DNA of 64,000 nt from Marsupella aquatica (taxonomy: Eukaryota > Plantae > Marchantiophyta), in assembly GCA_973895155.1 (NCBI GenBank), contig OZ316891.1:27317561-27381560 (forward strand). The letters are read 5' to 3'. This document shows positions 5,088-54,948 of the stretch, in pieces; the stretch's first letter is position 1, and the number at the start of each line of letters is the position of its first letter. The notes below the pieces were generated by a model. It searched no databases. It saw nothing but the letters and a program-made list of their open reading frames with translations, and was not told where the DNA came from. A program made the position numbers and the translations under genes.

Positions 5088-5230
5088 AGAAAGCTAAAGC
5101 TTTAATAGTTCTTTACTCCAAAATGGCGGGCTCGAAGGAAGCAAGAGCTTTTGTCAAAATTGACCAGAACCTAGCCTGCAAAACCATCGCCGATACTTAA
5201 GATATCTTTTGCCATCGCCAAAAAGCTATT

Positions 5231-11313: not shown

Positions 11314-11367
11314 CCTCCTACTATGCCAAAATTATATCCTGGCACAGCCACCCCCCATCCTTGCGTC

Positions 11368-14577: not shown

Positions 14578-14864
14578 CTCGGGGGGTTGACTATCAAAAA
14601 TCTTAGGAACCACGTGCGATCCAAAATAGGTATTTTTCATAGAAATTAGCTAAATTTTTAAAAAGTGTAGGAAGCAAAAGAAGGTATTATAGACCAATAT
14701 TTATAGAATATTCTCTAATATATACCTTTTATAAAGTAAAATAGGTCATTAATATTGAAAATATAGAATGTTTTTGGAATATTCCCATTATAAAATAGGT
14801 GTGTTTATATTAGGCTAGGATTGCACGTGGTACCCCAAAATATACACTAAGTTAACCCTCCGAG
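14578..14864. mobile_element. MITE copy 1 (287 bp, AT-rich interior)
   Basis: TIR CTCGGGGGGTTGACTA / TAAGTTAACCCTCCGAG; inner IR GGAACCACGTGCGATCC / GGATTGCACGTGGTACC; perfect 8-bp TSD GTCCAACA (14570-14577, 14865-14872). Confidence 0.92.
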
Positions 14865-21181: not shown

Positions 21182-24100
21182 ATGTTTTTCCCTGGGGATC
21201 GAGTTAATCTCTTATTGAACGATGAACCGGTTGCAGGTGGGACGGTTTTCAGCATTACTCGCTCGGACTCTTGTCACAACATTCTGATTGGCGAGCATAG
21301 AATCAATGAACATTTTTGTTGAGGATGCATTCTTCCACCTTGCTGAGTTACCTTATCCAAACGCAGGGGCGGACCTGGTTGGTGAAAGCTTAAATTCAGT
21401 AATTTAGTGGGATCGGTCCAGAGTCAGGTTTGCGGAAAGCCAGCGCCCGGTTTATCCAGGTGACAACCAAGAGGAGATTCCTCTAGAACGAGAAGCAGGT
21501 TTTGGGGAGCAAGATGCCACGGGAGACACTGTCCATAGTCAGGACAATGTTCTCTTGAGCGAGGACCTGAGCGATCAAAGTAGGTGGTTCAAGAAGTTTG
21601 CTTTGCTTTACGGAGATGATGATGAGACACTACTGGCTCGAGGGTGTATCACAAATCCACACCCTCAAGCATCAATTAACAATGAGAGAGTTGGAGATGA
21701 TCATGTCGGGATCAATATTCTCACACTGGCCGCCGACAACATCTCAAAGATGACGTTCCCTTATTTTGTTGAGGGAACGCCTTGCACAATCAAATGGCCT
21801 TTGCGGAGAACTCGGATCGAGCCTGGAATGCAATTGTTAAGCGATCTATTGGATCAAAATGAATTCCTGAATCCCGAGCGATCAATTGTATCATATGTTA
21901 AACCAAAGCGAGGCTATAATAATCAACATTGCAACCCGCAGGCTCCTGAGGAGAAGGAAAGGAAGAATATTCATAGAAGGCGTAACAGAAAGAAGACTCG
22001 GGAATCTATTGATGTTGTCTTCCAGGTTGAGTGTTGCACAAAGAATTGTTGTAGGAAACAACAGTGGGAAGTGGTCAATCAGATTAGAGATGAATTTTAT
22101 GGTCTCTCTCACGCCGATCAACAGACGTACATTTTGAACCATCTACACGGGAGGGATACGGAAACTATAGAGGCCGGGATGATTATTTTCATGGGACACA
22201 TGTCTATAAAGAAGGGTTTTGGACCATCCATGGTTTCTCCAGAGGAACCTTCTATTCAATCTATAGTCACTATCAAAATGGGGCAAAAGTTGGCGTTCAT
22301 GGCAACCAAGGATCAATGAAAACCAAAGACTACATCACATTATTTGTGGAGTGTATACGAAGTGTATTCCAAAAATGTGCAGAGCCTATGCCTCATCTCC
22401 ATAAAATTGGAGAGTCTAGAAAGCAGGAGGTCGTGTATAGGGTTCCCATAAGCTACGAGAGGAAAGATGTTTATGAAGAGGCTTGTGAGCTTAACAAGAA
22501 TCTTGGAGCTTCTTCTCCTGTCATCACTACTTTCTACAAGATATTGGAGAAAAAGTTTCCCAATTTCCAATTTCCTGATCGAAGCAATTTTGCAAAATGC
22601 GATCTCTGTACTACAATCAAAGAGACTCTTCGAGGCAAGAAGAGACAAGATGTTGTTCTTGAAATCAAGGCCAAAAGAGAACGTCACATGCTGGAACAAC
22701 AGTCCCGGAGAAGCATGTATTATGCAGCCAAACTAGCAGTAGATCAAGAGCCAGAGAAGTATCTCTCGGTGATTCATGACAAAATGGATCAAGCCAAAAC
22801 AGGGATACCAAAAATGACTTTAACTCTTAAAAGTCAAGCGGGTAAATCAATTTCGTTATCGATGACGTTGACTGGAATGCTCACGCATGGATGGGATCCC
22901 AGAATCTATGCCCATTTTGCACTTGGTGGATTGTGGGCGAGTGATCCTGATTTCACAGTCTCATCTCTTTCAAAGTTGTTCAGGGATCTTGAGTCATTCT
23001 CTAGGGATAAGACTGGAGACTTATCGCCGAGGAGCACAGACATGTCTGATCCTATTTTTGTTGCGCTTTTAGATCGTCGGGCTTTTGAGATTGGCTATCT
23101 AGAAAGGAAGAATGTGGATTTTGACCATTTTAAAGGACTTGAAAACAAGGCTCGCGCGAGCCTCGCATGGAACCCTCATCCTCCAATTCTTTTTGACCAC
23201 TTCCATGCCATTTTCACCTCCAACTTGACAATTCAGGGAAGGACAATAAGAATCAGATCGTGATCGCATATTGTAGTGAGCTTGTTCTTTGAGGAGTGTT
23301 TGAGTCTGTTACACTCTCCTTCCTGATGGTTGGTCATACTCATGAGGACGTTGATGCATTCTTTTCACGAGTAGGAATTTGGATTTATAATCATGAGTTA
23401 ACAACTTTCTTTAGTTTGATGGTTGAAGTTTGGGAGTGTGAGAAGAAGCATCCAGTCCCAAGATTCATCCGTGAGGTTGCTGGATACAAAGCTTATGTTT
23501 CTTCTTATGTGAAGAAGATCCAAGGTCAGTTGGCCCCTGTGCAGTTCTTGTTTTCAATGAAAGAAAATACACCTATTTATCAATATCGGGAGAAAATTGA
23601 TTCGCCGTGGCTACCTGCAAAAGGTCACTCCATTTGGAAAACTACTGGAAAGGACTTTGTGTTTCCCTCCGAAAATCCTCTTTCAAAACAAATGGAGTCG
23701 ACTCATAAGCGAGCGAGTGGCATTCTCAAATACCTCGTTCATTACATTTCATGGCTAAAAGCCGCCTGGAAAGATGTCACATCAGAGGGATATCATTTTC
23801 GATCCCCGGAAATTGAGTATTGGGAAAATGTCATCAGGGTCTTCAAAGGTTCCCTATGCTCTGCGCCTAATCTAGAGAGGGACTATCTGCTACTCGATGG
23901 GTTTTGGCCAAGAACTAACCATGGAACCGGATATCGAGCTGAGGTTGGGATTTCTGAGAATAACATTGGCTCTATCAACAATGTCGTGGGCAGCCTTGAG
24001 CGTGAACTTCAGGAAGATCAATATGAGAGACAGACAATATTTGTTGGCCACCGCTCGGAGCAAGAAAGGTCAAGATTCTCCCCACTTGAGGATATTAAAA

Positions 24101-24471
24101 AGGATACGTTTGTTATTCTTCGTCCAACAGATAAATTTGAACAAATAGTTCCCCTTCGATTCTGGCTAGGAAGAGCCATGGATCGTGTTGTGTGGGTTCC
24201 AGATGATGCTCATGCTGGGGAGTTTGAGGCGGAATGGTGGAGACCTGTCCATCAAAAATTGTTTGTCCCAGACTCTGAACGATATCGGGATTGTTTCAAT
24301 TCTAAACAGTCCTGGGAAGTTGATCCAAATTACCAAAGTCCTACAATCCGACACGACTGGCTCCTCGCAACGTCTACAATCAATGGCTGGAATTCAAAGG
24401 CAAAGGGTAAAGTGAAAGTTCCAGGTCATGTTCTTGAAAGCGTGAATGCATACATTTCCGAGAACTTCTGA
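21182..24471 (+). pseudogene. Sola-like DD(E/D) DNA transposase, degraded
   Basis: CCxxxCC + 'IRDEFYGLS...QQTYIL'; 'KCDLC'; 'SVIHDKMDQAK'; 'HLQLDNSGKDNKN' (alternate frame ~23215-23253); 'SFLMVGHTHEDVDAFFS'. Frameshifts and TGA stops. The superfamily assignment is from recalled motifs. Confidence 0.7.
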
Positions 24472-27242: not shown

Positions 27243-28542
27243 AAGGCCGAGGGATCATGTCCATAAATGTATGGTTATTACTTGTTTCTTTGCCAAGTGA
27301 TTAACAAGCCCATCCCACTCTGCAAATTGATAGATGCCTAGGCCATGAAATATGTCTGTTTATATGCGAACCGTGACAACAGTCAATACAAATGGGGATA
27401 GTGAGTCTATCATGTCAATCCTCCTCGTCTACGATAGCTGATGGCATGAAGCCCTTGCTCAACAACACCCATGCCATGTACAACACTTCCGCAAAGTGTT
27501 GTACATGGCAAAGTGGCAAGGCATGCATATGGAAGACTTCAAGGATTCCGAATTCCCTCTAGCTGGGCAGAAAGAATAGAGACTACAACAATGGTAAGAC
27601 CCAGACTAAACTTCTCAAGCATAAAGCCCTTGCAATAGTTCAAATTATACGTACGCTCAAGTCTAACAGCTTTGAATCTTAGCATCTCTGTTTGCCGGAT
27701 TATACAAGATATTGTCTCTATCGTGAACAAGCTTCTTTTCACTTTACCTTTCTGCGGCAGGTGGAGTTTGTACTTGAAGCTGGAACAACACATGAGAAAG
27801 TTTTGCAAATAGCTTCTGCTAAACAATCAAAAGTCTGCGGACACTGAATTTTTCAAATGGAAAGCCTAAATCCGTACATAATGAGGGATGCAAAAAATAG
27901 GTGCCAGGTGATATGCTGGAGATTAGTACTTTACTGGGACAGGGATGTTGCATGTGTGCGTGTTGTCTTATGAGTGATGGTTATTTTGCTCAACACTATG
28001 GTTATAATACATATGTCATCTAGCTATGTTTGGATGCAAGGCTCACAAGGGTGTACACAACCTTAGGTTCTCACTACATAGCTTGTGTGATTTAAAGGTA
28101 TCGTGGATCATCTTGCAACAACTTTCTAGTCAAGGAAGCAAGAGATAGGACATTATCATTTCAAGAAGTTGGTCAAAAGACACCGCGTATCCTAGAGTTG
28201 GGAAATGTGTTGAACCAATCATGCGTTATAAGTGTCGTGCGCATATACATCGCTACACAACATACATTGCTTGTCACATACATCCAAACATAGTCACATT
28301 GCCACATCACAAACACAAGAGAATGGAATACAAGTGGAACTCATGTCCACACATGTCCAAAACCCACAATCGCCCCCTAGCTGGGAGTAAGGTCCCCTAA
28401 CTCTAGCTAGCCATGAGTTCTACAAGGTTGATATACACCTTTTCAGGTGTGAAGATCAGGAGGCCGGGTGCAAGTGAGCCCCATCGATCACCTACCTGCA
28501 ATCCATATCTGCCAAAAGAACACAAATGATAACTAGTCGGCT

Positions 28543-28700
28543 TCACCGACACTGAGGACACAACCATGATCCACTAGGAATCACCTGCAATGGTGGTGTC
28601 AAACATGACATGTGCCATCCTCTAGAACACTTATCACAAATCAACATAGTAACTGCTCCCTGAGTAGATCCACACAACATACATTTCAAGCCAGCACGAA
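28543..28700 (-). CDS. PHD finger at the integrase C-terminus (not in ORF track)
   Basis: Manual translation: CMLCGSTQGAVTMLICDKCSRGWHMSCLTPPLQVIPSGSWLCPQCR*, i.e. C4-H-C3. Confidence 0.92.
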
Positions 28701-28718
28701 CATGTGCCAAGCTTGGAT

Positions 28719-29835
28719 CTATTGTACCATCAATGTTGGGAAGGTGAATGGTGCACAGTTGCGCACATGATCATTCCAAACCATACCATTGTGTCCCTCC
28801 AACATCAGGACACCAAAAGGCAACACTTCACGCACACGTAAGATTGTCCGGCCTGCGGTCACATCAAGTGTTGTGGGTGCTGTCTGCTGCAAATAAACAT
28901 AATCATCGGGATGAAATCGTCGAATGCTTGCACGGTAACCTCCTCCACGAATAGTGGTATACCTCAAAGTATCACGATGTTGGGCAATGGCAAGGTTGTC
29001 AAAAGCCATGGGCATCACTCTCTGAAATACCCGTGCTCTCTCTGAACACACCTTGACCCAAACATCAGGATCATCCAAGTTCACAACTGGTGCAGCACGA
29101 CGAATAGCTGCTGGCAAATCTGGCTCTCTACCATAGAGCAAAAAGTAAGGTGAGAAGGATGCAAGTGATGCTTACCAACTGAAATGGTAGCCCATAGCTA
29201 ACCAAGGTAGCTGAGATCCCAATCTCCCAGATGACCAACCTGCAAGCCATACTTAGGCAATCCTCTCTTCATAGTTTGCACAACTCTCTCAGCTAATCCA
29301 TCTGCCTTAGGATGATCACGAGAGGTAGTACGATGATCAATCAAAGCTTGTTCACACAAACTCTCAAACTCTCCACGGAACTCAGTTCCCTGATCAGTCA
29401 ACACCTCAGCTGGTGCTCCAAAAGGAGTGAGTACGCGATCCAAAAATGTAGCAGCAACTCCTCCACTGGCTTTATCTGGCAACGCCACTAGCTCAATCCA
29501 CTTGGAGAAGTGCTCCACCATAACCAAAACATACCGATTATGGCGTTGGGTAAGAGGTAATGGACCAGCAAAATCCAAACTCCAACGATATCCCAAACCC
29601 ATGATCGGTAACGGGTGCAACTGGGGAGTGGGAGCACTCTATCGCATACCACACACTTAGCTATCAACTGCTGGACATGAGTGTGCATACCACGCCACCA
29701 ATACTGTGTCTGTAGCAAGCTATAAGTGCGCTTCACACCAAAGTGACCCAACTCCTTGTGTGCATGTCGCACCAAATGTACTCGTTGTGATGGTTTTGGT
29801 ACCACCAACACCCTACCATCATGCAGTACTCTCAA
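28719..29835 (-). pseudogene. Gypsy integrase (H2C2 plus DDE core), frameshifted
   Basis: 'HKELGHFG...CVVCDR', 'WSLDFAGPL', 'LTDQGTEF', 'DGLAER'. Confidence 0.92.
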
Positions 29836-30200
29836 AAGATGGTTTCCCTCCCATCGAAACCTCTTGGCTCTTTGTAGAACCCTATCACGTTCTTTGGCAT
29901 CTACGCAAATATTCCAACACTCTCACATCATTGTGAATATCTTGCTGTCCAAAAGTTACCTCACCAACATCCACATCTGAAGACTCATCATCCACTCCAT
30001 CCAATGAGGTAGAGTCCACAGATCCACTATATGCTGGCACCCAACAAAGAAAGGCAGATGCATGCCATCCTGACACCATCTCCTTATCTGACTCATCATG
30101 CCATCTAGGTCCAGTCTCATCCTGCTGACTGGTACATGGATTGCAGCTTAATCCATCTGCATCCAAGTTCACTTTTCCAGGCCTATGCACCACCTGGAAA

Positions 30201-31583
30201 TCATACTCCTATATATAACAACAATGCCCATCGTGCAAGCTTCCCTGTAAGCTTGTCAGACTCCATTAACCACTTAAGAGACTGATGATCAATGATCAAG
30301 GTGAAGGGGTTACCAAACAAGTAGCAACGAAAGTGTGCAACAGCCCACACTGTTGCCAAACACTCTCCCTCATAAGAGCTATACTTAGCCTCTACTGAAT
30401 TATTTGATCTACTGGCATAAGCCACAACAAACTCATTCCCCTCGTCATCCTTCTGAGTCAGCACTGCTCCAAGTCCTACTCCACTCCAATCAGTGTGTAG
30501 CTGAAATGGTCTGCCTGAAATGGGTCTTCTCAAAATAGGGGATGATGCCAACCTTTGCTTCAACTCCTAAAAGGCATGCTCCTGGTCATCACCCCAAATC
30601 CATTCCTGATCCAACTTAGTGAGTATGGTCAAAGGTTTAGCAAGTTGGCTAAATCTTTTAACATACCTCCTGTAGTAGCTCACCAATCCCAAGAATGCAC
30701 GAACTCTACTCACATCAGTAGGACAAGGAATCTGTGTAATGGCCTCCACTTTAGTCTGCTGTACACCCAATCCCCCTGGGTATATAGTGTGGCCCAAATA
30801 CTCAATCTGGTCTTGGAAGAACTTACACTTGCTAGGATGGAGCTTCAACCCATGTGCTCTCAATCTCTCCAACACAGTCTGCAAGTGATGCTGATGTTCT
30901 TCCATAGTAGAAGAATAGACCAAAATATCATCAATATAACATCTGACAAAATCCAAACCTGCAAGGATTCGATCCATGACTCTCTGGAACTCAGCTGGTG
31001 CATTCTTCAACCCAAATGGTAAGAATAACCACTGATACAAAAAATCTTTCCCATAAGAATCAATCCCCCAGAATGCTGTCTTGGACCTGTCAGCATGCCT
31101 AATTGGAAGCTGATGGTACCCTGCCCTCAGATCCAATGAACTGAAAACCTTTGCATGCCCCACAGCATCAAAGATCTCCTCAGGTGTGGGCATGACATAT
31201 CTATCATATTTTGTCTGGCGATTAATGGGTCTGTAATCACCACACATGCGCCTATCTGTGTAATTGCCATGCACATCCTTCTTGGCTGGCATCACTGTGG
31301 CAGATGCATACTCCCCATATGAAATCTCCACCAATCCAGCCTCCAACAAATCTTGAGTTCTGCTTTGAATCAGAGCTCTCTCCATGTCACTGTAACGGTA
31401 TGGCTTACGAAAGATTGGCGCATCACTAGCCAATTCAATCTGAATACCAGGACCCTTTAATGTCCCCAAATCTTTCATGCTAAATGCAAAACAATTCCAG
31501 TAACTCTTCAGGAATCGATGCATGCGATGTCTCTCCTCCCCTGTCAACTTAGGGCCAAGCTGTGGTTTCCAACTCTCCACCAA
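30201..31583 (-). pseudogene. Gypsy reverse transcriptase and RNase H
   Basis: 'RMCGDYRPIN', 'LDLRAGYHQ', 'PFGLKNAP', 'YIDD', 'LHTDWSGVGLGAVL', 'YEGECLA'. Confidence 0.95.
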
Positions 31584-31628
31584 ATCCCTAATATCTCTTT
31601 GTAGGGTAGAAGAGATAGCCGATGATTG

Positions 31629-32822
31629 CTATTTTGCAGTAGATTGAGCAGTCCCTTCCTGCTCAACAATCTGTCCAGCCTTGGCCAATCCTGCCATAGG
31701 TCCATGGACTGTCTGCTCGCCCCCAGCTGTGGTCAGTACTATCTCAGTGGACCACAAGCTCACCAAGGGACAATCAGTAATTCCAGCAGAGCGCATCCGC
31801 AACTGTTCAGCTACTCCCAAGCTGATAATCCAAGTCAAACAATTCAGGTCCATTGCTTGACCAAGAACCTGGCGCCGCAAACCCTCTGACACAGAGGCAA
31901 CTGCAGTGGTGCCAGTCAAAAATCCCATAGCACGCTCTCTCTCATCAGTAATAGGTTCCACTAACTGCTGGAGAGCTGTGTCCCACAAAAGTCCAGGGCC
32001 ACCTACTCTGAATGCATATGAAGCAGAGTGTCTTACAAGAGTGGGTAATGCACAACGTGGGCACCCAACTGCATTGACCATTGCCAATGGAGGTCTATCA
32101 AGTTGGGTCACACCCTATGCACGACGCCCTGGATCCAAAATATCATCCACCACTAAGGCTAGTGAGCGTGGAATGCTGTCAAATGCGCGCTTCAGCACCT
32201 CACATGGGATCAAATTAGTCCACCACAAGCGTGGACAATGTGCACGAGAACCCACACGTGCAGCATCCAATAACACACCAAGTCCAATCCAAGACCTCAC
32301 CTGGTGAACACTGGCAACAATCCGACTACGATCATCACCTAACAATGGCACATTCTCCAAAATGTATGCTGGAGACTGTGTCTGATGTAGCTGGAGATGA
32401 CGTAGCACCCGTAACATCTCCCAAAACAATGTAGAGCGTGGATCATGAAGTCCATGCCCAACGCCAGCTCTAGATTGGCCCTGACATGGCCAACCAGCAA
32501 TCACCAAATCAATGGGGCCAACACGATGCAGATGATCTGCCCCCAGCAATAAAATATCAGCAGGTAATGCATGCTGATAACCACGAATAGCATCCACTGG
32601 CAGCAACTGTGGATATCTATCCACCAACATAGCCACATGTCGCAATGAGACCCTCCATGCTGTCTCATCTGACTCCACATACAAATAACGACGAACAGGA
32701 ATTTCTACCTGAAGAACAGTAGCCAATCCAGTGCTAATCCCACCAAAAAGATCCAACAAAAAAATACCCTCCGGTGGATATTGCCAAGCAATAGGAGTGG
32801 TATCCAATGGTGAAAGAGTCAC
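31629..32822 (-). pseudogene. C5 cytosine DNA methyltransferase domain (DNMT3-like) in frame within gypsy pol
   Basis: Motif I 'LDLFGGIS', IV 'GWPCQ', V 'DPRSTLF', VI 'ILENV', VIII 'AH(C)PRLWWTN', IX 'ERERAMGF', X 'RRQVLGQAMD'; one TAG at 32115-32117. Confidence 0.92.
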
Positions 32823-32843
32823 AGGTGCATCTGCAAGAGGTTG

Positions 32844-35487
32844 CTATGCTCCTGACTGTGGTGTAAAAGCATGATGCCATGCATCATGTACCAATTGTGC
32901 TGCTGTCTGTGGCAAGGCCTGTGCAGTGCCCCACACTGGTGGCACAACACTGCCAATAGGTAATCCTCGCATGATGTGCTCCTTATGAGACTCCTCCAAT
33001 GGTGGAACATCTGCTGCATGCGCATTACCCTCAATCAAATCATCAGGTCCAGCAATTAGACCACTGAATGCTGCCAAAGACAATGGTGTGGATTTAGGGC
33101 CTCCCACAGGTCCACTAAATCTCACTGGCAATTTTCTCAATCGAGCATCTCTTGACTGCCAATCAGGTCTATATGACACTGATTCCTCCCAAAAATCAAG
33201 AATAAATCCCATGGGGTAGAGCACTGTACATCCCACCAACACATCATATGACTCTGCCTTAGTTAGAATAGCTCGCGCCTGTATCTGTGAGCTATCTGTG
33301 GTATGACCTTCCTGAATCCTCAAATCAAGAGGTCTCCTGGTAATGTGCTGTGTAGGTGTAGGTCCCCCTAATGAAGTCTGAATGGGAAAGGGACAATCCT
33401 CCAAATCCTCTGGACGAAATCCCAATCCATGTATGGCAGACTTTCCCAACATCAAGGGCTGAGCACTAGTATCCAGTAACACCCTCTCTGGTTGGTATAC
33501 TGCTCCAGAAGGCCCAACTAATCGGAAGATACCACTCCGATTATCTAATGATACAACACTAGGTTTAAACCTAGTCCTCTCAAATACAGGGCGTGCTGAT
33601 AAATCCACCAACCTCGCTGCTGCTGCATGCCATGTCTCACTAGTAGCAGTAGGTGGCATGGTCTTCACTGCATCAACACTGCAAGTTGCTTCTGCATGGG
33701 AAGCAACCACTGGAGTGTCCTCACAGAGTGTAGCTGCCAATTTGAACACTTCTACACGACCAACTCCCAAGTTCAGCATGTCTGTTGCTGAAAATAATGG
33801 GGCGCGTACCATGGCAGTAGCCGCCCCCAGCAAGGTACTTGTCATCCCTGCTGCATCACTACCTAATTCTGCCAACTTACCCACATCAGGGTTTGTCCGA
33901 ACCGGGTTCATAGAGGCAGTCTAAACTGTCTCTGACAATGTAAAAGACTGAGGAAGCTTTGTCTGCCGATGTGCATCCCCCCTTTGTGGATCTAACTCCA
34001 CTACTGCTCCTCGGGGCTCAAGAGCTTTGGCTACCCCATGTGTCAAAGCTACTGATGCATCAATATGTGCAGTGCCACACATGAATCCCATGGTGGCAAG
34101 GTCTCCATCAGCTCCATAAGATGTGGAAGGACCATGGGATGTGGAAGGTCCATAGGATGTTAATGCCCCATCACCAGAAGTAGGTCTCACCTGGGAACTA
34201 GCCATGGCAGCTAGCTGTTGCTCCAATTGAGCAATCTTAGCATCCTTTGGATCTATGGTTACAGCAGGGGCAGCGTTACCTCCCTGTCTCCCTGCATGTG
34301 GCATGCCACGACCACGTCCACCGCCTCTACCTCCTCCTCTTCCCTGATCATGTGTACGGGATCCTCCTCTCCGTAACTCAGGATGGAGTGAGAAACACCT
34401 ATCCTTGGTGTGTCCAGGAGCTCCACAATGATCACACTATCGCTGATCAGGTGCTGATGCTCCCCCTGATCCTCTATGATCTGGGCAATATCTCTGTGCA
34501 TGATCCCCACCATAGGTCCAACATCTTGATTGCTGTCCAGCATAAGAGGGCACAGGTCTCTGGCTGGTAGACTCTCGTGCAGTAGGCTTCTCCCTCTGGC
34601 TCTTCCGTGTCGTAGGCTGTGGTGTGGATGTGGATGCAACCTTTGGTGCTTCCTTGGCAAATCCGGAAGTCACCACCTTCTCATTCACCATATTGAGCTC
34701 AATGCGCTCAGAAAGTGTAAAAACAACTGCTAATGTGGGATCTGCATCCCTAAGCAGAGTGACATCTCTCACTTTGCGTTGCAATTCTCTGTCCAGAATT
34801 GCATACCAAAATTGGACTGCCTGAGCCTCTGTCACTCCCTTGGTGACAGTGATCAATCTGCGCATACGAGTGTATGCCTCACGTAGACTCTCTCCAGTCT
34901 TGCGCTGGAACTCCTGAAGACCCTTCAACTTATCAGTTCTTACACCCTGATAGCTTCAGTACCTCAAAGAATTCCACCACAGGGTTAAATGTTGGTGTAA
35001 CTCCAATTCCTGTCACAATCACACCGGCAGGGGTAGCGGTGGATGCTGCTGGAGTGCTGCTAGAAGAAGCAGCAGCTATGGCAATGGGTTGGGCAGCCGC
35101 ACTAGTGCCATAGGTGATGGACAAGTAATTAGGCGACCAATGCTGCCTCCATGCCTCAATCTCAACCAAATGAGCCTTCCAAAACTCATGGTAGTCATCC
35201 ATGGGTGGCCCCTCCAAATGCTGAAATAATCCCTTCCATGCCATGAAAGGGGTAAACAATGTGGCGTTACGCAATGTCTGCATATTGCACCACGTATCAA
35301 ACTCCTGGATGAAGTCATCCAGATCAATCGTGCCAACTGCACCAGAGTATCGTCGTGGGCCCTTTGTAGCCCCGTACATCTCGTCCATATCCCACAACAA
35401 AGGTGCAACCACCTGATGATGAGGAGAACTGGTCACTGAGTCCTCATCAGAATCACTGTCTGAAGCTGCACTACGGACTGCTACCAA
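32844..35487 (-). pseudogene. Gypsy gag and aspartic protease
   Basis: 'FQRKTGESLREAYTRMRRL', degenerate knuckle 'CWTYGGDHAQRYC', protease 'VLLDTSAQ...YDVLVG'. Confidence 0.85.
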
Positions 35488-36138
35488 TGCCGCTGGCCGA
35501 AACTGTGCCCCACTCCGAGTGAAACCAGTCCGTCATCCATCGGGTAATCCAGCAGCACCAGAAGAATCCGTGGTGACCAACCCTAACCTAATCTATGTGC
35601 TAACCCTAAGGGCAATCTATCCCTGTCAGCACCACAAGCACTCACCATGGTGTGTTGGGCATCACTCCAACATCACCAGGAGAGAAATACACAGCACACT
35701 AGAATGTCCAGTTGCAAACCCGGATCACTCCTATGGAATCAAGCGCCCACACCGAACCAACATGGCGCATAAACAGGAAACAAGTGTGGAGAGGATCCAA
35801 TCAACAAGAATAGTCAAACACTAACTCTCCACACCAAGAGTGATCACACATTGATCAAACAAATATTCATAATGTTCAATGAAAGGCCTTCATAATAGGC
35901 TTCATGATGTCCCAATGTTATAGATGAGAAACCATGCACAATTGGTTCAATCTGTGTATTTAGATGAACTTAGAACTATCAAAAACCTCTAAAGAGCCTC
36001 TGATTTGGCCCGAAACAAGGCTCTAAGCAAACAAGAAAGTGTATAAAGCCCCCCGGCGCTTGAATCTAAACAACAAGTTGTGAAAACTTGTGTGTACACA
36101 AGGTGGGATGAGAACTTGTCAGTTAAGTGCTTGCGGTT

Positions 36139-36308
36139 GGGAATAGCCCTGGGATGGGTGACCTCCTCGTGCTCGACCTCGTGCCTCCCCTCGCACTCAC
36201 GACCCGGAATAGCCCCGGGATGGGTGACCTCGACCTCGCGCTTGCTTGTGCTTGCGATGGGTGACTTTGCGCTCGCGGTTGGGAGCACTTTCGGGATGGG
36301 TGACCTCA
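36139..36308. repeat. Three copies of GGGA-x-AGC-x-CGGGATGGGTGACCTC in the gypsy 5' region
   Basis: At ~36140, ~36205, ~36281. Confidence 0.7.
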
Positions 36309-37766
36309 CGCGTCGCCTTATGCGCGCACAGTTGTGTGTGTACACAAAACAGAAGTCGTCGGGCTCAAAAATGGCAACATTTGCCACTCAAAATCAGCGA
36401 TTTTCTTCATAAAAACGGCAACCTCAATGGCTCTTGACCTCTGCAAACCTGTCGCGCACGGTTCTGGGACATTTCGTGAGCGTCCCTTGACAATAAAACA
36501 CTGCGAGCACTCAAAATTCCAACAGATCTGTCCACAAAACAACAGTGCGATACAAGTAGCAACCTTCGGCCATCTCTTTCCAGATCCAGATCTAGACTCC
36601 GACTCAATCCAGATCCAGATCTAGACCAAATCCAGATCCAACAACGTTCAAGCTTGGCCAGAACCAGATCGAATAGCAATAGAGTACTCAAACAATAGAA
36701 CCAACGATTCAAGAAACATGAATCCATGTCAAACACAAATCCAATTGATTCGAGCTACCACAAACCGTCACCGTCAACGACAAACTCAGACTGAGCTTCT
36801 GTCCGCACAATAGAGTTTGAAGCTCACGATCTTTCAATATAATCTCCATACAATTGGCACAATGATCCCGGTTAACAATACCCCATCGATCCCGCACCGA
36901 TCCGATCACACACGTATGTCAGGCCAACGCACCTTGCACTACTCAAGGAATCCACGTTACACAAGCGGAGCTCATAGCCACCAGAGCCACTCAAGTTCCT
37001 CTCTCTCCAAGGCTCAACATTGAAAGATGACCTTTCAATGCCTCACAAGTGAGAAGTACCCTCTCACACAAACCTGACGAAACCTTATCGACTCATATAG
37101 CACACATACCAAACATACGGATCTAGATAGTACGATACACTCTAACACTACCTAGAATGGTGTGACATAAGGCATATTCTTGATGGACATCGGGTCCTTA
37201 TGTTGTAGCACTTGGAATTTGACAGCTTTTGAAGCAAAATGCCTAGATGAAACTTTGTCCTTGGACCAAAAAGTGTCACCATGCAAGTTGGATGTTAGTC
37301 ATGTACTTTATGTTTGGACTACTATCATACCTAAGTACATACTTGAGCGGCCTGGAGTAGTGGAGGGCCAAAACTTGCATGCGACATCAACAATGCCTAG
37401 ATTTGCGTTCAATATGCTTGGACTTGCCTTACACTTGAAGTCCTATCCAAAGCCAAGCTTCCCACACCAAGGCTAGGTAAACACGGGGATACACAGATGG
37501 GCATAATTGTAAGTTGGCTCAAAAGACCAGAAGATACCATTGTCGTCAATCCAAGGGCATGTCCACAAGCCCTTTGGGTGGGGGCAGCATGTAAAGGACC
37601 AAAGGTGGTCTTGGGATGGCCGGTATCCAGAAGAATAGATGGTGGGGGTATGCTCACCTGCCATCAAGAGCAAGAGATTATGTTGAGATCTCATGGATTA
37701 GTGAGCCCATGAATGATTACGTAGAGATCATGACACGTGCTTGAGGGGAAGGAAGGGGCACCTGGT

Positions 37767-38052
37767 CTCGGGGGGTTGACTATAAAAAATCTTAGGAACC
37801 ACGTGCGATCCAAAATTGGTATTTTTGGTAAAAATTAACTAAATTTCTAAAAAGGGTATGAGGCAAAAGAAGGTATTATAAACTCATGTTTATGGAATAT
37901 TCTTTAATATATAATTTTTATAAAGTAAATAGGTTATTAATATTGAAAATGGAGAATATTATTGGAATATTTTCTTTATTAAATAGGTCTATCTATATTA
38001 GGCTAGGATTGCACGTGGTACCCCAAAATATACACTTAGTTAACCCCATGAG
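37767..38052. mobile_element. MITE copy 2
   Basis: Collinear with 14578-14864; degenerate 8-bp TSD CACCTGGT / CACCCGAT. Confidence 0.9.
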
Positions 38053-40460: not shown

Positions 40461-43400
40461 CTAACCGGATGAAATCCAACAATCACTACGTTGCATCCAT
40501 ACTATCCTCTCCCTATTTATAACTTCTTTCACTCTCAGCAGTCTGGTCCGTCTATTACACATAGGTAGAGTCAGCCCTACCGCAGCCACATGATCTGCTG
40601 CCTCAGATAAAATAAACCTAATATCAAATTTGCGTACTCCATTGTTCTGGAACATGTGCTCATTGCGACCCAACCAAAGTGCCCACAAAATCTGGTATAA
40701 TACAAACAGCTTGATTATCTTCAGATGCTCTTTACCAAGAGCCGAGTCAATCATCCCAATCAGCCCTGCATTAAAGTCTACAAAGATGCCTCCCAGGCAC
40801 TGAACACAAAGGCGCCAACATTTCTGTGCGTGCAGACACCTGATGAACAGGTGAGGAATGGATTCAGAGATTTCAGGGCACAGCTTGCACACTCCGTTGC
40901 CCTTGCCAATCCTCGCTGCCCTCACCCCAGTGAAAAGCCCCGACGCCACAATCCGCCAGAGAAATGTCTTGGCACGCATTGATAGGTCAGAGCCCCATAA
41001 CCCTGCCCATCCAGCACTCCATTCATCCTCTGTCCAATCCCCCACGTTCTGTTCAGACTCTCTGAATCACCCACCTCAGGCCTGAGAAGCCTGTATGCTC
41101 TTTTATTTGAAATTTTGAATGTTCTCAGTGGTGTTGCATTGTCTGTCCAGCACCAGCAGCTAGGTCCAGGTTCAAATCCCCATACGCATAGTGAAATACT
41201 CGTCAGCATTGTCATAAATCTCTGACCCAATGTTATATGATCACCAGTAAAGCCCCGTAGATGTGCCCATCTCTCAGTCATCCCTCTCCATCCGTTCTCA
41301 TCCTCCGACCAAAGATCCTGGATTCTTCTGAGACCTAATCTGCCACAAAGTACCGTCACCGCTGTCATCTCTTCTCCGCTCCACGACTGAGATCCCTTGG
41401 TGCAGCGAAGCAAATCCCCAATAGACCATCTCCCAGGTACCGTGTCAATGGGACAGAAAATCAGATGTGCTCTCAACAACTCCCAGGCTTTCCAGAGTCC
41501 TCCTGTATACGCCAGTCCATGCCATGCTCCTGGGCAGCAAAGCAGCAACTTGTCGCGAAAGGTGTAACCATTTCTTCTCAACACTTTATAACTGGCCCAT
41601 CCAATAAGGTTCAGGTTTTTAGCAAACATCCTGGCCCATTCTGAGTCGGGGTGGTCAATAGCCCCAGTAAACCACTTTGAAAGTAGTGCATCCGAGTGGC
41701 TACGGAAGTCCTTGAAACCTAATCCCCCGTCCACCTTGGGTCTAGAAATCCAAACCCAGGAGACCAGTGGCACTCTTCTCCCCCCTTCATTGTTATGCCC
41801 CCACAAAAAGTCCCTACACAAGGCTGTCAGCTTCCGTGCCAGGCTCGTTGATGCTTTCATAAACATAGTATGGTAAATTGGTATAGCAAGTAAGATATGC
41901 CTAACCAGAAGCGAACGTCCCGTGAATGTAAGCATCTTGTTTGACCAAGAAGAGAGTCTCTTCCCAATCTTATCCAGACAAAAGTTGTGTAGCTATTCTG
42001 TCTTCAAGTCCACACCCAATGGTGCCCCAAGGTACTTTTGAAGCTCCCCTGGAGCACTGATCACACACCCTGTGTCTCTCAGCCACACCGGAATAATCAA
42101 CATTGCCAGCGGTATCACAATTGATTTACGCAGATTAAGCCGAGCACCAGTGGCCCCCTCATAGCACTGAATCACCTTCGTTACACGCTGAAAACTTCTC
42201 TCAGTTGCAGGGATAAACATCCCCATGTCATCCGCAAAGAATCTATAGCAAATGGTAAGTTGCCTGGAGACTTGAATTCCATCTAACCTACCTGCCTTAA
42301 TCTCAGCATCCATAAAGTCCATTAAGGGTTGCGTTGAAATGACAAACAGAAGTGGTGAGAGAGGGCAACCCTGCCGAAACCCTCGGTGCAGGTTAATTTC
42401 TGCGGAAATCATCCCATTCATGTAGACCCTCGAGGATGCCTGCATCAGTAGCGCTTGCACCAGTCTGATGAATTGTCCACTTATTCCTAGCAGATGCATG
42501 GTTTCCCATATGTAGCTTTGATCCACCTTGTCGAAAGCCTTCTCGAAGTCCAGCTTAAGGAAAAGCGCTTCAACTCGCCGGTTCTTCGTCCAGTCAAACA
42601 TAAGCCATGCCAAGGAGATGTTTTCAAGTATATTTCTTCCTGGAATGAATCCGGTTTGTTGCGGGCTGATGAGTCGTGGTAAGATCCGTATTAGCCTAAG
42701 TGCCAGGATTTTGGCAATTAGCTTATATATTGTGTTCAGCATTGTAAGTGGTCTCGATCCAATCCCTCAGAAATCTCTTGTCAGGCTTCTTTGGGATAAA
42801 TTTGATCATTCCTTCTTTGAGCCCCGCTGCCAGGTTACCTGTCAACCAAAATTCCTGCACCATTGCTACCAGGTCATCCTGCGTAAACTCCCAACATGCC
42901 TGGTATACTTCCACCGTGATCCCATCCGGTCCAGGAGCCTTATCCTTAGGCAGCATCCACATTACTTATTTTATTTCCTTGTTTGATGGCAGCCCTTCCA
43001 GCATAGTAATCTCTGCTATCCTAAGAGCACACCTCGTGTGTGCCAAAAGCTTCCCTCTTTCGTTCAGCATCTCCGCCCTCTCTCCACTGGTTGGCGCCAT
43101 TGGTGCATAAAGTTCCCGACACGTCTTCTCAACTTCCCTCAAGATCATCACCGGGTCAGTGATCACTTCTCCTCCTTCTAGCGTTAAGCTCTTCATTGCC
43201 TCCCTCTCACGTTTAGCCTTAACAGTGGCAAAGTAAAAGCGTGATGGCTCCTCTCCCTCGCCTAACCACTTAATCCTAGCTAGCCTTCTTCCTCTGTGTG
43301 CCTCTTCTAGTTCGGTAGCATGTAACTGATCTTCCGTATCAATGTAGTCTCTCAGCTCTTCATCCGTATATTCATCCAGTATTGCCGTTTTCAACACTCT

Positions 43401-44378
43401 TAGTTGATTACGCAGTAATAGCAGTTCTTCCTCCCTCTTCTTGGGTGACCCTTGTCTCTCAATATATATCTGCCTCATATTCCAGCTAGCCATGTCAAAT
43501 GCGCGTATGGGTTCAGTGCAGTCCCCTTTTCCCTCAATCCATGTTGCCTTTAGGATCTCCACCATACCTTCCATCCCGACAACAGCTGGGTTGGCCTTGA
43601 ACAAGGCCCGCCGCATCCCGATGGATCCAACAGTCCGCTCTTCCATCATTCGTATACAGAGAGCAATTGGGTCATGATCAGAAAGTGCTGAACCCCCGTC
43701 ATGCTCCAAATCCAACAGTTCGTGGATCCACCCACCGTTATTGCTAAAGTAGAACCGATCAAGCCGCGATTGTACCATAATTCCATTCCTATTCCTTCGC
43801 CAGGTGAATCGTGCCCCCCGCGCCTCCCCCTTTATAAGCCAAGCATCCACCAGATTCAGCCGAACCTTCAGGAAACGCCAAAACTCCGCTTCTCTACCCT
43901 TGATCAGAGGTGAATTGCCAGTCGAATCTTCCCTGAGCTCTGTCATATTGAAATTGCCACATATCAACCAGTTGGTTTGCGGTAGCTGCTCCTTAAGTTC
44001 ATGCCACAATGTAGCCCTTTGGCGTGAAGAGTTCGATGCATACACACTCAAAATTCCAAAAGTGCAATTCTCATACTCTACCAGCACCCATACTGCTCTT
44101 CCTAGTTCAACAGTTCCTGACGAAATCAACCTGAGAGCCGGGTGGATGAGTAAGGCGGTTCCCCCCCTGCCCTCGTCTGGTGCCAAAGTGAAGCTCAGAT
44201 ATGAAGGCATAATGACTCGTAGTGCCATATCGAGCCGGAACTGATTCGCCTTGATTTCTTGTAGTGCAATGATTTCTATCCGCTCCTTCCTTGATGCTAG
44301 CCAATTCTTCACAGCGTTCTTCCTGTTGGGCTCACATAGCCCACAAACATTCCACGACACAACTCTCAGGATACCTGC
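40461..44378 (-). pseudogene. LINE ORF2 (EN-RT-zf-RVT) with frameshifts and stops
   Basis: SWNVCGL, SRLDRFY, SDHDPI, KLDFEKAFD, RQGCPLSPLLF, FADD, CKLC...HLFIRC. Confidence 0.93.
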
Positions 44379-44416
44379 CCCTTATCTCCTCCTCTCTCTT
44401 CCCACGTTGGTAGCCG

Positions 44417-46399
44417 TTATATGCGCATCCTACCTCCTGAGGAGATGCCAGAGCCCACACTCCCAGACCGACGACGCCTGGGTGTGGCAACCACAATCTC
44501 CCCTGTCTCCTCCATCTGGGAATCCACAATTTTCAACGAGGAGTCCCATAGTTCAGTCGGCCCGTCTTCGCTTGGTACAGCAGCAATGTCAAATGTTGAT
44601 CCCTCTCCCCTCCCGGCCCTCTCTCTCTTAGCTCCCGTCCCTGCATCAGGCAATTCACCATGTGAGAACTGCAGGGATCTTTGCTTTTTGGAATCATGCA
44701 CTGTCTTGTCCCTCTTAGGTGCAGGCGGCGTTCGCTTATCAAGCTTCCTTGCTCTATCCTTTCCCTTGTTAGACACATACGCTTCATATTCAGACATGTC
44801 TGTGTCCGTATCACCGTGATATGAAAAAGCCTCCATCACCAATGGCTCCCTGGGGGAGTCAACGCAGTCTCCCGCCTCCACGGGGACCAACTCCAATCCC
44901 ACAGGGTCAAAGCAGCGTGCCTCAGCATCCAACCTAGAGGGAGCCGGATCAGGCTGTATCCCTTCTAAAGGTAGCACATCCCTTTCAAAGGTCCCCGGCT
45001 GCAGCGTTGCATCCGCCTCCACAGCATCCGCGCACAAATCCTCCCCTGGCCCAACTCGTTCTTCCCGCAGCCCTGCCTCTACCCCTCCCAGTTCAGGCAA
45101 CAAAGGAATTACTTCCTCACGAACAAGAGATTCAATCGCTCCAATGTCTGCTGCTACCGTATCCTCTTCAATGTGAGCCGTTGTCACTGCTCCCAGCCTC
45201 ACTCGTAGGTTCATGGCAAGTTGCTTTCTCAGCACTTCTTCTGGATCTCCTTCAGCAACTGAATCCAGTTCCTCAGGGGTGCCTACTAGGTCTTCATTGT
45301 TATTCTCAAGATCCGCCTCTGCAGCCACATCCCTCCCCTCCCTGCATTCTCTGGCTAGGTGCCCCTTTTTGTTGCATCTAAAGCAGTGGTAGGGGATGTT
45401 CTTAAACAGGATCGGCTGCCAGATGACTATGTCCTCCCGAATCACCACCCTAGCACTCCGAGGCACCTCATGTTCCGTATCCCACAGAATATAGGCTCTG
45501 TCATGCGGGTAGGAGCTGTAGTCATCCCCTTGTATATAATGCAACAGTTTTCCCAGTGATTCCGCTATCTTCATTCTGCATCCTTCCAAAATCAGTGCCC
45601 TGAATGGGAGCTCGATCCATACCGGCAACTTGGTAAACTTCTCTGTTCGTATGTCAAATGATGGATCCCAGGGAAAGGTGTAGACCAATTTTTGTTCTAG
45701 AAACCACGGGGCAGAAACCAGTGCAACGTCCCTGTGATCAGCATTTTCAAATACCACCAGATAAAAGCTCTTCCCAACAAATTTGACTTGAAGCACAGAC
45801 CAGTTGCGCTCCTCCACCATAACATCCATGACCCAATCACGGAACATTGGTAACATTGGGGTCCAATCTGTAAAATAGCATAGCATACCACAATTGTACA
45901 GTTGTCGAGCATTGTTTGCTGCCTCCCCCAGATTCCATTCGACCGATGTGTACAGCTTCGTGTTCCAGTCGCCTTTGGAATTTGCCGCTACTTCTTTTAG
46001 AATACTTATGCATTGCTCAGTTACAACCACCTCCTCCTGATCTGTCTTGTTTGTATTTGCCGTTTCACTCCCCTCTTGTTCCGAGTCAATCCCTCTAGCC
46101 TCAATAAGTGGCGATGCCCCATTCTGCGGATCAGGCGGCGCTGCCTTCCGGAGTGCCAATTTTTGACGTTCCTCTTTTTGATGTTGCGTCGTATCAGTCC
46201 CGGCCAGAGCTCGGTCTTGGCCATTCAGAGCCTCCCTTGGTTCCTGAAGCTTCTTACGCGCCCTCTCCGAATTTGCGTATAAGTCAAAGGGTTGTTGTAT
46301 AATTACCCACCGGCGATCAAATCCACGGCCAACCCTGGGGAGCGACGAGCTACAAAAATCCTGACGGCTGAATCTATCAGGTTCCACCATAGGAAGCAC
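44417..46399 (-). CDS. LINE ORF1 (DUF4283-like plus CCHC); start codon uncertain
   Basis: 'LPVWIEL', 'CFRCNKKGHLAREC'; homologous to 11368-13533. Confidence 0.88.
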   Translation of the reverse strand: MLPMVEPDRFSRQDFCSSSLPRVGRGFDRRWVIIQQPFDLYANSERARKKLQEPREALNGQDRALAGTDTTQHQKEERQKLALRKAAPPDPQNGASPLIEARGIDSEQEGSETANTNKTDQEEVVVTEQCISILKEVAANSKGDWNTKLYTSVEWNLGEAANNARQLYNCGMLCYFTDWTPMLPMFRDWVMDVMVEERNWSVLQVKFVGKSFYLVVFENADHRDVALVSAPWFLEQKLVYTFPWDPSFDIRTEKFTKLPVWIELPFRALILEGCRMKIAESLGKLLHYIQGDDYSSYPHDRAYILWDTEHEVPRSARVVIREDIVIWQPILFKNIPYHCFRCNKKGHLARECREGRDVAAEADLENNNEDLVGTPEELDSVAEGDPEEVLRKQLAMNLRVRLGAVTTAHIEEDTVAADIGAIESLVREEVIPLLPELGGVEAGLREERVGPGEDLCADAVEADATLQPGTFERDVLPLEGIQPDPAPSRLDAEARCFDPVGLELVPVEAGDCVDSPREPLVMEAFSYHGDTDTDMSEYEAYVSNKGKDRARKLDKRTPPAPKRDKTVHDSKKQRSLQFSHGELPDAGTGAKRERAGRGEGSTFDIAAVPSEDGPTELWDSSLKIVDSQMEETGEIVVATPRRRRSGSVGSGISSGGRMRI

Positions 46400-49342: not shown

Positions 49343-49490
49343 CTCCGGGGGTTGACTATAAAAAATCTTAGGAACCACATGCGATACAAAATATGCATTT
49401 TTCATTAAAATTAGTTAAATTTTTAAAAAATGTAGGAAGCAAAAGAAGGTATTATAAACCCATATTTGTAGAATATTCTTTAATATACCA
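49343..49490. mobile_element. MITE copy 3 (left half only)
   Basis: CTCCGGGGGTTGACTATAAAAAATCTTAGGAACCAC...; similarity ends near 49490. Confidence 0.85.
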
Positions 49491-54800: not shown

Positions 54801-54948
54801 CAATCGACCCAAGGTCAGCACGCCTGGTATTTAGAGGTTGTAAGGGAACTCCTTCATTTGAAAGCAGTGTTGCACTTGACGTAGCAACCTGCTGTTCAGT
54901 CCTAGGGAGACTATCAAAAATATCAGCACTTGTACGGCTGTTTTCCAT
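51897..54948 (-). CDS. HKT: HKT/Trk-family K+/Na+ transporter; exons 54948-53414, 52940-52662, 52266-51897
   Basis: Four pore loops (CGIGF, FSNSGY, ARSSGG, SAYGSIGLS), 'MMYISAYP', 'FNIVFEVVSAYG', 'GRHRGLP'. GT-AG junctions keep the frame (AT|G, AG|T), matching the usual two-intron plant HKT layout. Confidence 0.93.

What the first reader, a model, noticed from the sequence alone, without database searches (positions are those of the whole stretch)
28543..35487. Gypsy retrotransposon with an in-frame DNMT3-like cytosine methyltransferase and a PHD reader
Seen: a full set of C5-MTase motifs (FGG, PCQ, ENV, PRLWWTN, ERAMGF, LGQAM) lies between protease and RT in the same reading frame, broken only by TAG stops, and the integrase ends in a C4HC3 PHD finger. 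Known: DNMT-carrying retrotransposons have been reported in dinoflagellates and the charophyte Klebsormidium. Inference: this extends such elements to a land-plant genome. The enzyme might methylate the element's own cDNA, and the PHD might guide integration by histone mark.
Basis: partly seen in the sequence, partly recalled or inferred. Interest (0 to 1): 0.85.

Follow-up and report, generated by a model that had tools for sequence, protein, structure and literature searches.

The report
Bryophyte methyltransferase retrotransposon with leaky stop
This is a decayed copy of a retrotransposon family, shared by liverworts and peat mosses, that carries its own DNA methyltransferase followed by a conserved stop codon that ribosomes likely read through, which would load many enzyme copies into each particle and likely methylate the element's new DNA.

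Summary
Confirmed and extended. Window 37167-28233 (minus strand, 8,935 bp, TG...CA ends, 4-bp target duplication) is a decayed Ty3/Gypsy element: gag, protease, DNMT3-type cytosine methyltransferase, RT, RNase H, integrase, PHD. It is no one-off capture. The same domain sits in the same place in Marchantia, Calypogeia, Sphagnum, Closterium and Klebsormidium elements, and after RNase H in Scenedesmus. It is under purifying selection (dN/dS 0.07-0.22 in 15 unsaturated pairs). The family has the split A-coding-B-A-B repeats described for KnitGypsy-Dnmt3. 33 of 35 loci have a stop there, 31 followed by CAR and 9 by the full tobacco-mosaic-type readthrough signal CAR-YYA, and five Marchantia proteins end 98 residues after motif X. 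Gag-protease-methyltransferase is therefore probably made in capsid amounts, and RT-integrase only by readthrough. Readthrough, enzyme activity and PHD histone binding are inferred, not shown; the Klebsormidium enzyme was inactive in yeast. Ten literature searches found no report of the land-plant elements or of the stop. Verdict: new variant of a known kind, testable in Marchantia.

The parts
28233..37167 (-). Whole element, 8,935 bp, TG...CA ends, layout A-coding-B
   Evidence: contigs of runs X1 and X2 join 37167 to 28233 with two letters between
37168..37171 (-). Target-site duplication, left copy (CTTA)
28229..28232 (-). Target-site duplication, right copy (CTTA)
36839..37167 (-). Terminal repeat A (inner border approximate)
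   Evidence: joints 28368-36839 (X1, X3) and 28370-36898 (X1) in family contigs; 342-bp A repeat of L030
35389..36838 (-). 5' leader
   Evidence: sequence between A and the gag ATG
34395..35388 (-). gag with CCHC zinc knuckle (34436-34395); frameshift near 34955
   Evidence: tblastn with Marchantia Mp_4g09160: 63% and 54% identity
33156..33524 (-). Aspartic protease (motif at 33479-33459; borders approximate)
   Evidence: motif position; Asp_protease_2 hit in relative P0004, E 0.0012, below the curated cut-off
31776..32780 (-). DNMT3-type C5 cytosine methyltransferase in linear motif order: I 32756-32739, IV 32495-32478, VI 32360-32346, VIII 32246-32214, IX 31943-31920, X 31865-31848
31623..31631 (-). 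Conserved stop and readthrough-type context TAG CAA TCA
30783..31259 (-). Reverse transcriptase core (YIDD at 30938-30927)
   Evidence: Pfam RVT_1 E 7e-34
30216..30596 (-). RNase H
   Evidence: Pfam RT_RNaseH E 1.4e-32
28731..29750 (-). Integrase (H2C2, core, C-terminal part), broken by frameshifts in this copy; left border approximate
   Evidence: tblastn with natural ORF2 protein P0221; domains of P0221
28546..28686 (-). C4HC3 PHD finger at the end of ORF2
   Evidence: Pfam PHD E 3.2e-12
28372..28382 (-). Polypurine tract
   Evidence: matches the same place in 9 related loci by blastn
28233..28371 (-). Terminal repeat B, ending GCACGACA

Best explanation
This is a decayed copy of a Ty3/Gypsy lineage of green plants whose first frame encodes Gag, protease and a DNMT3-type methyltransferase and ends at a conserved stop that ribosomes likely read through to make RT, RNase H, integrase and PHD, so each particle would carry the methyltransferase in capsid amounts and would likely methylate the new cDNA before integration. 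Shown: the anatomy, the family's spread, purifying selection, the conserved stop and its CAR-YYA context, the split repeats and the 4-bp target duplications. Inferred: readthrough at a few percent (about 0.8); release of the enzyme by the protease inside the particle (about 0.7); CG methylation of the element's own cDNA (about 0.55). The internal B-NN-A junction probably templates the two TG...CA ends that integrase uses (about 0.6). The PHD probably binds unmethylated H3 tails and biases insertion (about 0.4).
For: Stop: of 35 loci that show both the methyltransferase end and the RT start, 33 have an in-frame stop at the homologous place, although the linker varies from 210 to 411 nt. CAR follows in 31 of the 33 and the full CAR-YYA in 9; the background frequency of CARYYA is 0.0021 per position. 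Synonymous sites between these families are near saturation (pS 0.64-0.83). ORF2 after the stop is 1,047 open codons in L021, L026 and L088, and L021 has an open 1,359-aa ORF1. Five Marchantia proteins of 1,278-1,281 aa end 98 residues after motif X. P0004, 79% identical to the window, ends at the same residue as the window's TAG. CAR-YYA is the readthrough consensus of tobacco mosaic virus (PMC2194720, passages). Enzyme: the best PDB hits are DNMT3A by sequence (E 6e-22 against 1.6e-8 for a DRM-type enzyme) and by fold (E 1e-12). All three catalytic motif patterns are present in 53 of 73 domains. dN/dS is 0.07-0.22 in 15 pairs, including 0.126 at dS 0.26. The CpG observed/expected ratio is 0.32 in the element against 0.63 and 0.57 in two LINEs of the same window. 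Related DIRS-borne Dnmt3 enzymes methylate CG in yeast (PMC5890265).
Against: No readthrough, activity or binding was measured. The Klebsormidium KnitGypsy-Dnmt3 domain gave no methylation in yeast, a result its authors called inconclusive. 22 of the 33 stops come from one Sphagnum-like family with CAA-CCC/T, one base off the consensus, and 8 of the 33 are TAA. Five of the 35 rows are duplicates, and the loci share ancestry, so they are not independent. Klebsormidium P0107, Closterium P0119, L050/L051 and P0071 have no stop between methyltransferase and RT, and P0071 sits inside the stop-bearing clade. CpG depletion is not general: 0.54-0.78 in L021, L026, L030 and L088. In Candida Tca2 an in-frame gag stop gave no readthrough in a yeast reporter. 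The land-plant PHDs lack the acidic loop that DPF3 has. The model is of middling quality (pLDDT 63.6, target-recognition region under 50).
Confidence: 0.6

Rival explanations
1. The stop is a true end of ORF1, and RT-integrase is made another way: splicing over the stop, an internal promoter or reinitiation. The methyltransferase would still be made in Gag amounts.
For: The gene models of Marchantia P0013 and Sphagnum P0039 skip the stop region, although these are predictions on decayed copies. The Sphagnum-like family often has an in-frame ATG six bases after the stop. Tca2 is a precedent for an in-frame stop without simple readthrough.
Against: The ATG is absent in the window, L006, L021, L026, L041 and L088, while CAR-YYA is kept in all of them and ORF2 stays in frame.
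Confidence: 0.15
2. The anatomy and readthrough are as described, but the enzyme does not methylate the element's cDNA. It acts on RNA or host chromatin, or serves as a nucleic-acid-binding part of the particle.
For: No activity of the Klebsormidium domain in yeast. CpG depletion is uneven across families. The domain is less constrained than RT (0.07-0.22 against 0.03-0.05).
Against: Catalytic Cys, ENV and motif VIII Arg are kept in most domains. The domain stays within the processed polyprotein in two different positions across green plants.
Confidence: 0.23
3. A one-off or recent capture of a host DNMT3 retrocopy by one element, now decaying without function.
For: This copy is dead: five other stops and several frameshifts. 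Decayed copies within one family show dN/dS 0.39-0.71.
Against: The domain has the same position in Klebsormidium, Closterium, liverwort and Sphagnum elements. 463 clusters at 50% identity match at E 1e-30 or better, and 96 of the best 150 also carry RT, RNase H or integrase. There is no DUF3444, which plant host DNMT3s carry (PMC6453930, passages).
Confidence: 0.01

Closest known systems
KnitGypsy-Dnmt3 of Klebsormidium nitens (de Mendoza et al. 2018, PMC5890265)
   Same: Gypsy domain set, unrearranged Dnmt3-type domain in the polyprotein, purifying selection, DIRS-like repeat layout. Klebsormidium KFL_009030040 has protease-DNMT-RT-RH-integrase in the same order, 45% identical to the window's domain.
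   Different: Found here in liverworts and Sphagnum. A conserved stop with CAR-YYA separates methyltransferase from RT, whereas the Klebsormidium protein is continuous. The paper's text mentions no PHD. It describes an acquisition in the K. nitens lineage, while the data here point to an older lineage shared with chlorophytes.
SymbioDIRS-Dnmt3 of Symbiodinium (PMC5890265)
   Same: Dnmt3 domain in Pol, A-coding-B-A-B repeats; shown to methylate CG in yeast.
   Different: Uses a tyrosine recombinase. This family has a DDE integrase and makes 4-bp target duplications.
Stop-codon readthrough of tobacco mosaic virus, SIRE1 and MuLV (PMC2194720, passages)
   Same: In-frame stop between two reading frames; CAR-YYA context as in tobacco mosaic virus.
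   Different: The stop lies after gag-protease-methyltransferase, not after gag (MuLV, Tca2) or after pol (SIRE1), so an accessory enzyme and the protease fall on the abundant side.
EpiLTRs and DAM-LTRs (bioRxiv 10.64898/2026.05.21.726589, passages)
   Same: LTR elements that combine a methyltransferase with a chromatin-reader domain.
   Different: Those carry Dam plus a DNMT4-related enzyme and a chromodomain. The preprint itself sets them apart from the streptophyte Gypsy-DNMT3.
Host plant DNMT3 (PpDNMT3a/b, PMC6453930, passages)
   Same: Unrearranged DNMT3-type catalytic domain.
   Different: Host enzymes carry a C-terminal DUF3444; none was detected in the element proteins.

Membership tests
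Ty3/Gypsy LTR retrotransposons | Order gag-protease-RT-RNase H-integrase, RVT_1-type RT | tested here: met
Ty3/Gypsy LTR retrotransposons | TG...CA ends, short target duplication, polypurine tract | tested here: met
   4-bp duplication in 5 of 5 copies with both outer ends (window, L017, L023, L030, L044; L023 after correcting a two-base slip of the script)
Ty3/Gypsy LTR retrotransposons | Two full direct LTRs | tested here: not met
   No repeat between the window's ends; the family has split repeats instead. It works like a Ty3 element but is not a canonical LTR element.
Ty3/Gypsy LTR retrotransposons | tRNA primer-binding site after the 5' LTR | not tested
   No comparison with tRNA ends was run
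KnitGypsy-Dnmt3 lineage | Dnmt3-type domain between protease and RT | tested here: met
   Same order in Klebsormidium P0107 and the window
KnitGypsy-Dnmt3 lineage | A-coding-B-A-B repeats | tested here: met
   Complete in L030; B-NN-A junction in L009, L021, L026, L030, L088 and in contigs of the window's family. The window copy itself is A-coding-B.
KnitGypsy-Dnmt3 lineage | Common descent by RT tree | tested here: inconclusive
   All methyltransferase-bearing rows fall on one side of a branch with SH-aLRT 98, but branching among Klebsormidium, Closterium, chlorophyte-type and land-plant groups is open; quick tree, no bootstrap
KnitGypsy-Dnmt3 lineage | Methyltransferase and RT in one open Pol ORF | tested here: not met
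   Conserved stop in 33 of 35 loci: a variant of the lineage
DNMT3-type C5 methyltransferases | Motifs I-X in linear order; closest to DNMT3 by sequence and fold | tested here: met
DNMT3-type C5 methyltransferases | De novo methylation of DNA | not testable with these tools
   Needs an assay; the Klebsormidium relative was inactive in yeast
Host plant DNMT3 genes | C-terminal DUF3444 | tested here: not met
   No hit at E 0.01 or 0.001
Tobacco-mosaic-type readthrough sites | Stop followed by CAR-YYA, downstream ORF in frame | tested here: met
   Window TAG CAA TCA; full match in 9 of 33 loci, one mismatch in 22
Tobacco-mosaic-type readthrough sites | Measured readthrough | not testable with these tools
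   No translation data
PHD fingers | C4HC3 zinc ligands | tested here: met
PHD fingers | Binding to a histone H3 tail | not tested
   Nearest solved fingers are CHD4, DPF3, ATXR5, KDM5B and PHF21A; their preference for unmethylated H3K4 is recalled, not from a call

The most novel reading that the evidence does not exclude
A Ty3 lineage as old as green plants, with split DIRS-like repeats, an integrase, a PHD and a DNMT3. In bryophytes it uses a plant-virus-type leaky stop to pack hundreds of de novo methyltransferases into each particle, so new copies arrive already CG-methylated and the element writes part of the host's transposon methylation itself.
Probability: 0.35. Interest if true: 0.88.

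Novelty: new variant of a known kind. Interest (0 to 1): 0.72.

Why it matters
Why a retrotransposon keeps the enzyme that silences it has been open since the 2018 report, which rested on algae without genetics. The family is now shown in Marchantia polymorpha, a model plant with at least five full-length gag-protease-methyltransferase gene models filed as hypothetical proteins, so the question can be tested. The conserved stop adds a clue: the enzyme falls on the abundant side, which suggests a particle-level job. The split repeats with an integrase point to a poorly described way of making cDNA ends. They also suggest that programs looking for paired LTRs would miss these elements. Counts of DNMT genes in bryophyte genomes need to set these copies apart.

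Tried and rejected
No whole genome is held for the window, so intact copies could not be sought in the assembly. Viral contigs gave no relative or only short prokaryotic-type matches. The one strong hit in prokaryote genomes (L088) groups with the plant elements and is taken as eukaryotic contamination of a bin. No RNA holder was listed. Paired LTRs were sought and not found. A stem starting 11-14 nt after the stop is predicted in both clades, but the L021 clade shows no compensatory change (0 of 11 pairs), so it is left as a lead. The census used a pattern that missed known fused proteins and is not used. The careful tree did not finish; the quick tree is cited. The ESM Atlas did not answer. 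Earlier-finding look-ups returned nothing. No complex prediction was run, because no histone tail was at hand.
Full report
OBSERVATION. The minus-strand frame from 34955 to about 30206 has six stops, all TAG, while the other two frames have 136 and 110 stops over 28543-35532. Read with X at the stops, it gives the end of gag with a CCHC knuckle, a protease motif, the C5-methyltransferase motifs I, IV, VI, VIII, IX and X in linear order, RT and RNase H. Pfam supports DNA_methylase (E 2.2e-10), RVT_1 (7e-34), RT_RNaseH (1.4e-32) and, at 28686-28546, PHD (3.2e-12). The start of gag lies in another frame, and integrase and PHD are spread over three frames. This copy is dead.

HOST. No genome is held. 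The window has a plant-type HKT gene (E 2.6e-36 to HKT1;1) and two L1 LINEs with DUF4283. The element groups with Calypogeia, Marchantia and Sphagnum-like copies (SH-aLRT 99). A bryophyte is the likely host; this is inference.

ENZYME CLASS. Among solved structures, the profile matches DNMT3A best (E 6e-22), ahead of a DRM-type enzyme (1.6e-8) and M.HaeIII (1.3e-6); the window's own domain gives the same top hit, DNMT3A. A model of the natural L006 domain (pLDDT 63.6) matches DNMT3A/3B over its length (E about 1e-12, 20-23% identity). 53 of 73 domains hold all three motif patterns tested. No DUF3444 was found; host DNMT3s of non-flowering streptophytes have one (PMC6453930, passages).

SPREAD. 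A search of longer proteins gave 57 relatives among 7,996 scored, with named hits in Marchantia polymorpha (57-74% identity), Calypogeia fissa and Sphagnum fallax. Sphagnum troendelagicum and M. paleacea appear. A search with an intact second ORF gave Klebsormidium nitens KFL_009030040 (protease-DNMT-RT-RNase H-integrase in one ORF), Closterium proteins of the same order, Riccia sorocarpa (RT to integrase only) and a Coleochaete scutata transcript (RT to PHD only). A full HMMER scan found 463 clusters at E 1e-30 or better. Of the best 150, 96 also carry RT, RNase H or integrase: 89 with the methyltransferase between RNase H and integrase and 5 with it before RT. Of ten of these looked up, one bears a name, Scenedesmus sp. 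PABB004. In an RT-RNase H tree of 38 picked rows, all methyltransferase-bearing rows lie on one side of a branch with SH-aLRT 98; deeper order inside is open (quick tree; FastTree of 123 rows; DNMT tree).

SELECTION. Of 25 pairs compared for the methyltransferase, 15 give dN/dS 0.07-0.22, 7 are saturated, and 3 pairs of decayed copies within one family give 0.39-0.71. RT gives 0.03-0.05 between families and protease 0.08-0.37 (simple counting method).

THE STOP. Many natural relatives end 78-190 residues after motif X, and P0004 (79% identical) ends at the residue before the window's TAG at 31631. I gave the window and 54 of the 92 loci, leaving out the short prokaryotic-type matches; 35 showed both the methyltransferase end and the RT start. 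33 of the 35 have an in-frame stop at the homologous place; L050 and L051 (one distant GC-rich element) have none. Five rows are duplicates. CAR follows the stop in 31 of 33. The full CAR-YYA is in 9 (window, L006, L021, L022, L026, L041, L042, L046, L088), CAA-CCC/T in 22 rows of one Sphagnum-like family, and 8 stops are TAA. CARYYA has a background frequency of 0.0021. The second ORF is open for 1,047 codons in L021, L026 and L088. The first ORF is fully open in L021 (1,359 aa), broken in L026 and cut by the contig start in L088. Five Marchantia proteins of 1,278-1,281 aa end 98 residues after motif X; their DNA was not seen. CAR-YYA is the readthrough signal of tobacco mosaic virus, and SIRE1, MuLV and Tca2 are retroelements with in-frame stops (PMC2194720, passages). 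By contrast, position 32117 is among the places where nearly all family depth differs from the window, so that stop is private decay. Against the reading: P0071, inside the stop-bearing clade, and the Klebsormidium and Closterium proteins run through without a stop, so the stop is not needed by every branch.

ENDS. The element runs from TGTCA at 37167 to GCACGACA at 28233, flanked by CTTA on both sides, with a polypurine tract at 28382-28372. There is no repeat between its ends. L030 shows the full layout: A (342 bp), coding region, B (113 bp), two bases, A, B, flanked by AAGG. L017 and L044 are A-coding-B like the window, and all 5 copies with both outer ends have a 4-bp duplication. The junction GACA-NN-TGTCA recurs in L009, L021, L026, L030 and L088. 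Contigs of public runs join 37167 to 28233 with two letters between (X1, X2) and 28368 to 36839 (X1, X3), so the window's own family has the same layout; 24,001 contigs of X1 lie on the 11-kb stretch, which indicates a repetitive family but gives no copy number. The window copy most simply lost A-B by recombination between the two B repeats (inference). The same layout is stated for KnitGypsy-Dnmt3 in the legend of Fig. 4c of PMC5890265; the figure itself was not seen.

PHD. The finger is kept from Scenedesmus and Klebsormidium to liverworts. Its nearest solved relatives are CHD4, DPF3, KMT2D, ATXR5, KDM5B and PHF21A. From recall, most of these read unmethylated H3K4, and the window's finger lacks the cage tryptophan of H3K4me3 readers. 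The land-plant copies also lack DPF3's acidic loop, so histone binding is uncertain. PHDs in retrotransposons are known (PMC6673714 and PMC8557442, passages).

MECHANISM. Most likely every ribosome makes Gag-protease-methyltransferase and a few percent read through to add RT, RNase H, integrase and PHD. The particle would then hold the methyltransferase in capsid amounts and methylate the cDNA at CG, so that a new copy arrives pre-marked. The element's CpG ratio of 0.32, against 0.63 and 0.57 for two LINEs in the window, fits; but other families give 0.28-0.78, and host methylation could explain it equally well. The Klebsormidium domain was inactive in yeast, a result called inconclusive by its authors.

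LITERATURE. PMC5890265: parts 1-3 of 7 of the text, the Discussion, passages and a search of 3 supplement files. Marchantia, liverwort and PHD do not occur in the main text, and Marchantia and Sphagnum are absent from the supplements searched. bioRxiv 10.64898/2026.05.21.726589: passages only; it refers to 'streptophytes (Gypsy-DNMT3)' and never names Marchantia; its supplements were not seen. PMC12344493: passages and one supplement file without hits; its supplementary trees were not seen and could include bryophyte copies. The REXdb paper PMC6317226 has no occurrence of PHD, methyltransferase, Marchantia or readthrough. 10.1101/363937 and PMC11982613: passages, nothing relevant. Ten searches found no report of these elements in land plants or of the stop. 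Subscription papers, the Marchantia genome papers and repeat databases were not searchable, so prior annotation there is possible.

VERDICT. Real, and a variant of the known KnitGypsy-Dnmt3 kind. New, as far as these searches reach: the land-plant range, the probable green-plant-wide lineage with two domain orders, and the conserved readthrough-type stop. Interest 0.72.

Noticed in passing
P0469, P0561, P0043, P0048, P0051; L040, L045, L048: A second domain order, RT-RNase H-DNMT-integrase-PHD, makes up 89 of the best 150 representatives; the one named case is Scenedesmus. The methyltransferase seems to have moved within the polyprotein.
   Followed up: partly
P0060 (Tetraselmis gene model): A Copia-type protein (RVT_2, integrase before RT) with a weak DNA_methylase hit (E 0.0009), 26% identical to the window's domain: possibly a further capture, or a fused gene model.
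   Followed up: no
P0156: An element with protease-Dam-RT-RNase H-PHD-integrase: an adenine methyltransferase in the slot that the cytosine enzyme holds here.
   Followed up: no
window 31520-31615; L021:5097-5198: A predicted long stem starts 11-14 nt after the conserved stop in both clades and could stimulate readthrough; no compensatory change in the L021 clade.
   Followed up: partly
L088; P0181, P0300: Family members filed under bacterial bins (a Synechococcales genome, an Obscuribacterales protein) group with or match the plant elements: probable contamination.
   Followed up: partly
window 6637-13533 and 40461-46420: Two L1-type LINEs on the minus strand (DUF4283, zinc knuckle, endonuclease, RT, zf-RVT), each broken by a few stops.
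   Followed up: no
window 53410-55035: Exon of a plant-type HKT cation transporter with a long N-terminal part that does not match solved HKTs.
   Followed up: partly
window 21408-24471: Three plus-strand ORFs of 303-392 codons, the last with DUF7869 (E 4.9e-19): probably a DNA-transposon-related gene.
   Followed up: no
window 14553-14858, 37742-38046, 49318-49495: Three copies of a non-coding repeat of 150-280 bp, 81-89% alike, with high depth in public runs.
   Followed up: no
window 3089-3471 and 5207-5494: Two clusters of about 90-bp units, each with a palindromic core, in partly inverted arrangement.
   Followed up: no
L020:956-1423/5021-5488; L023: A copy whose integrase region is replaced by an inverted 468-bp piece of its own gag-protease region and parts of repeat A.
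   Followed up: no
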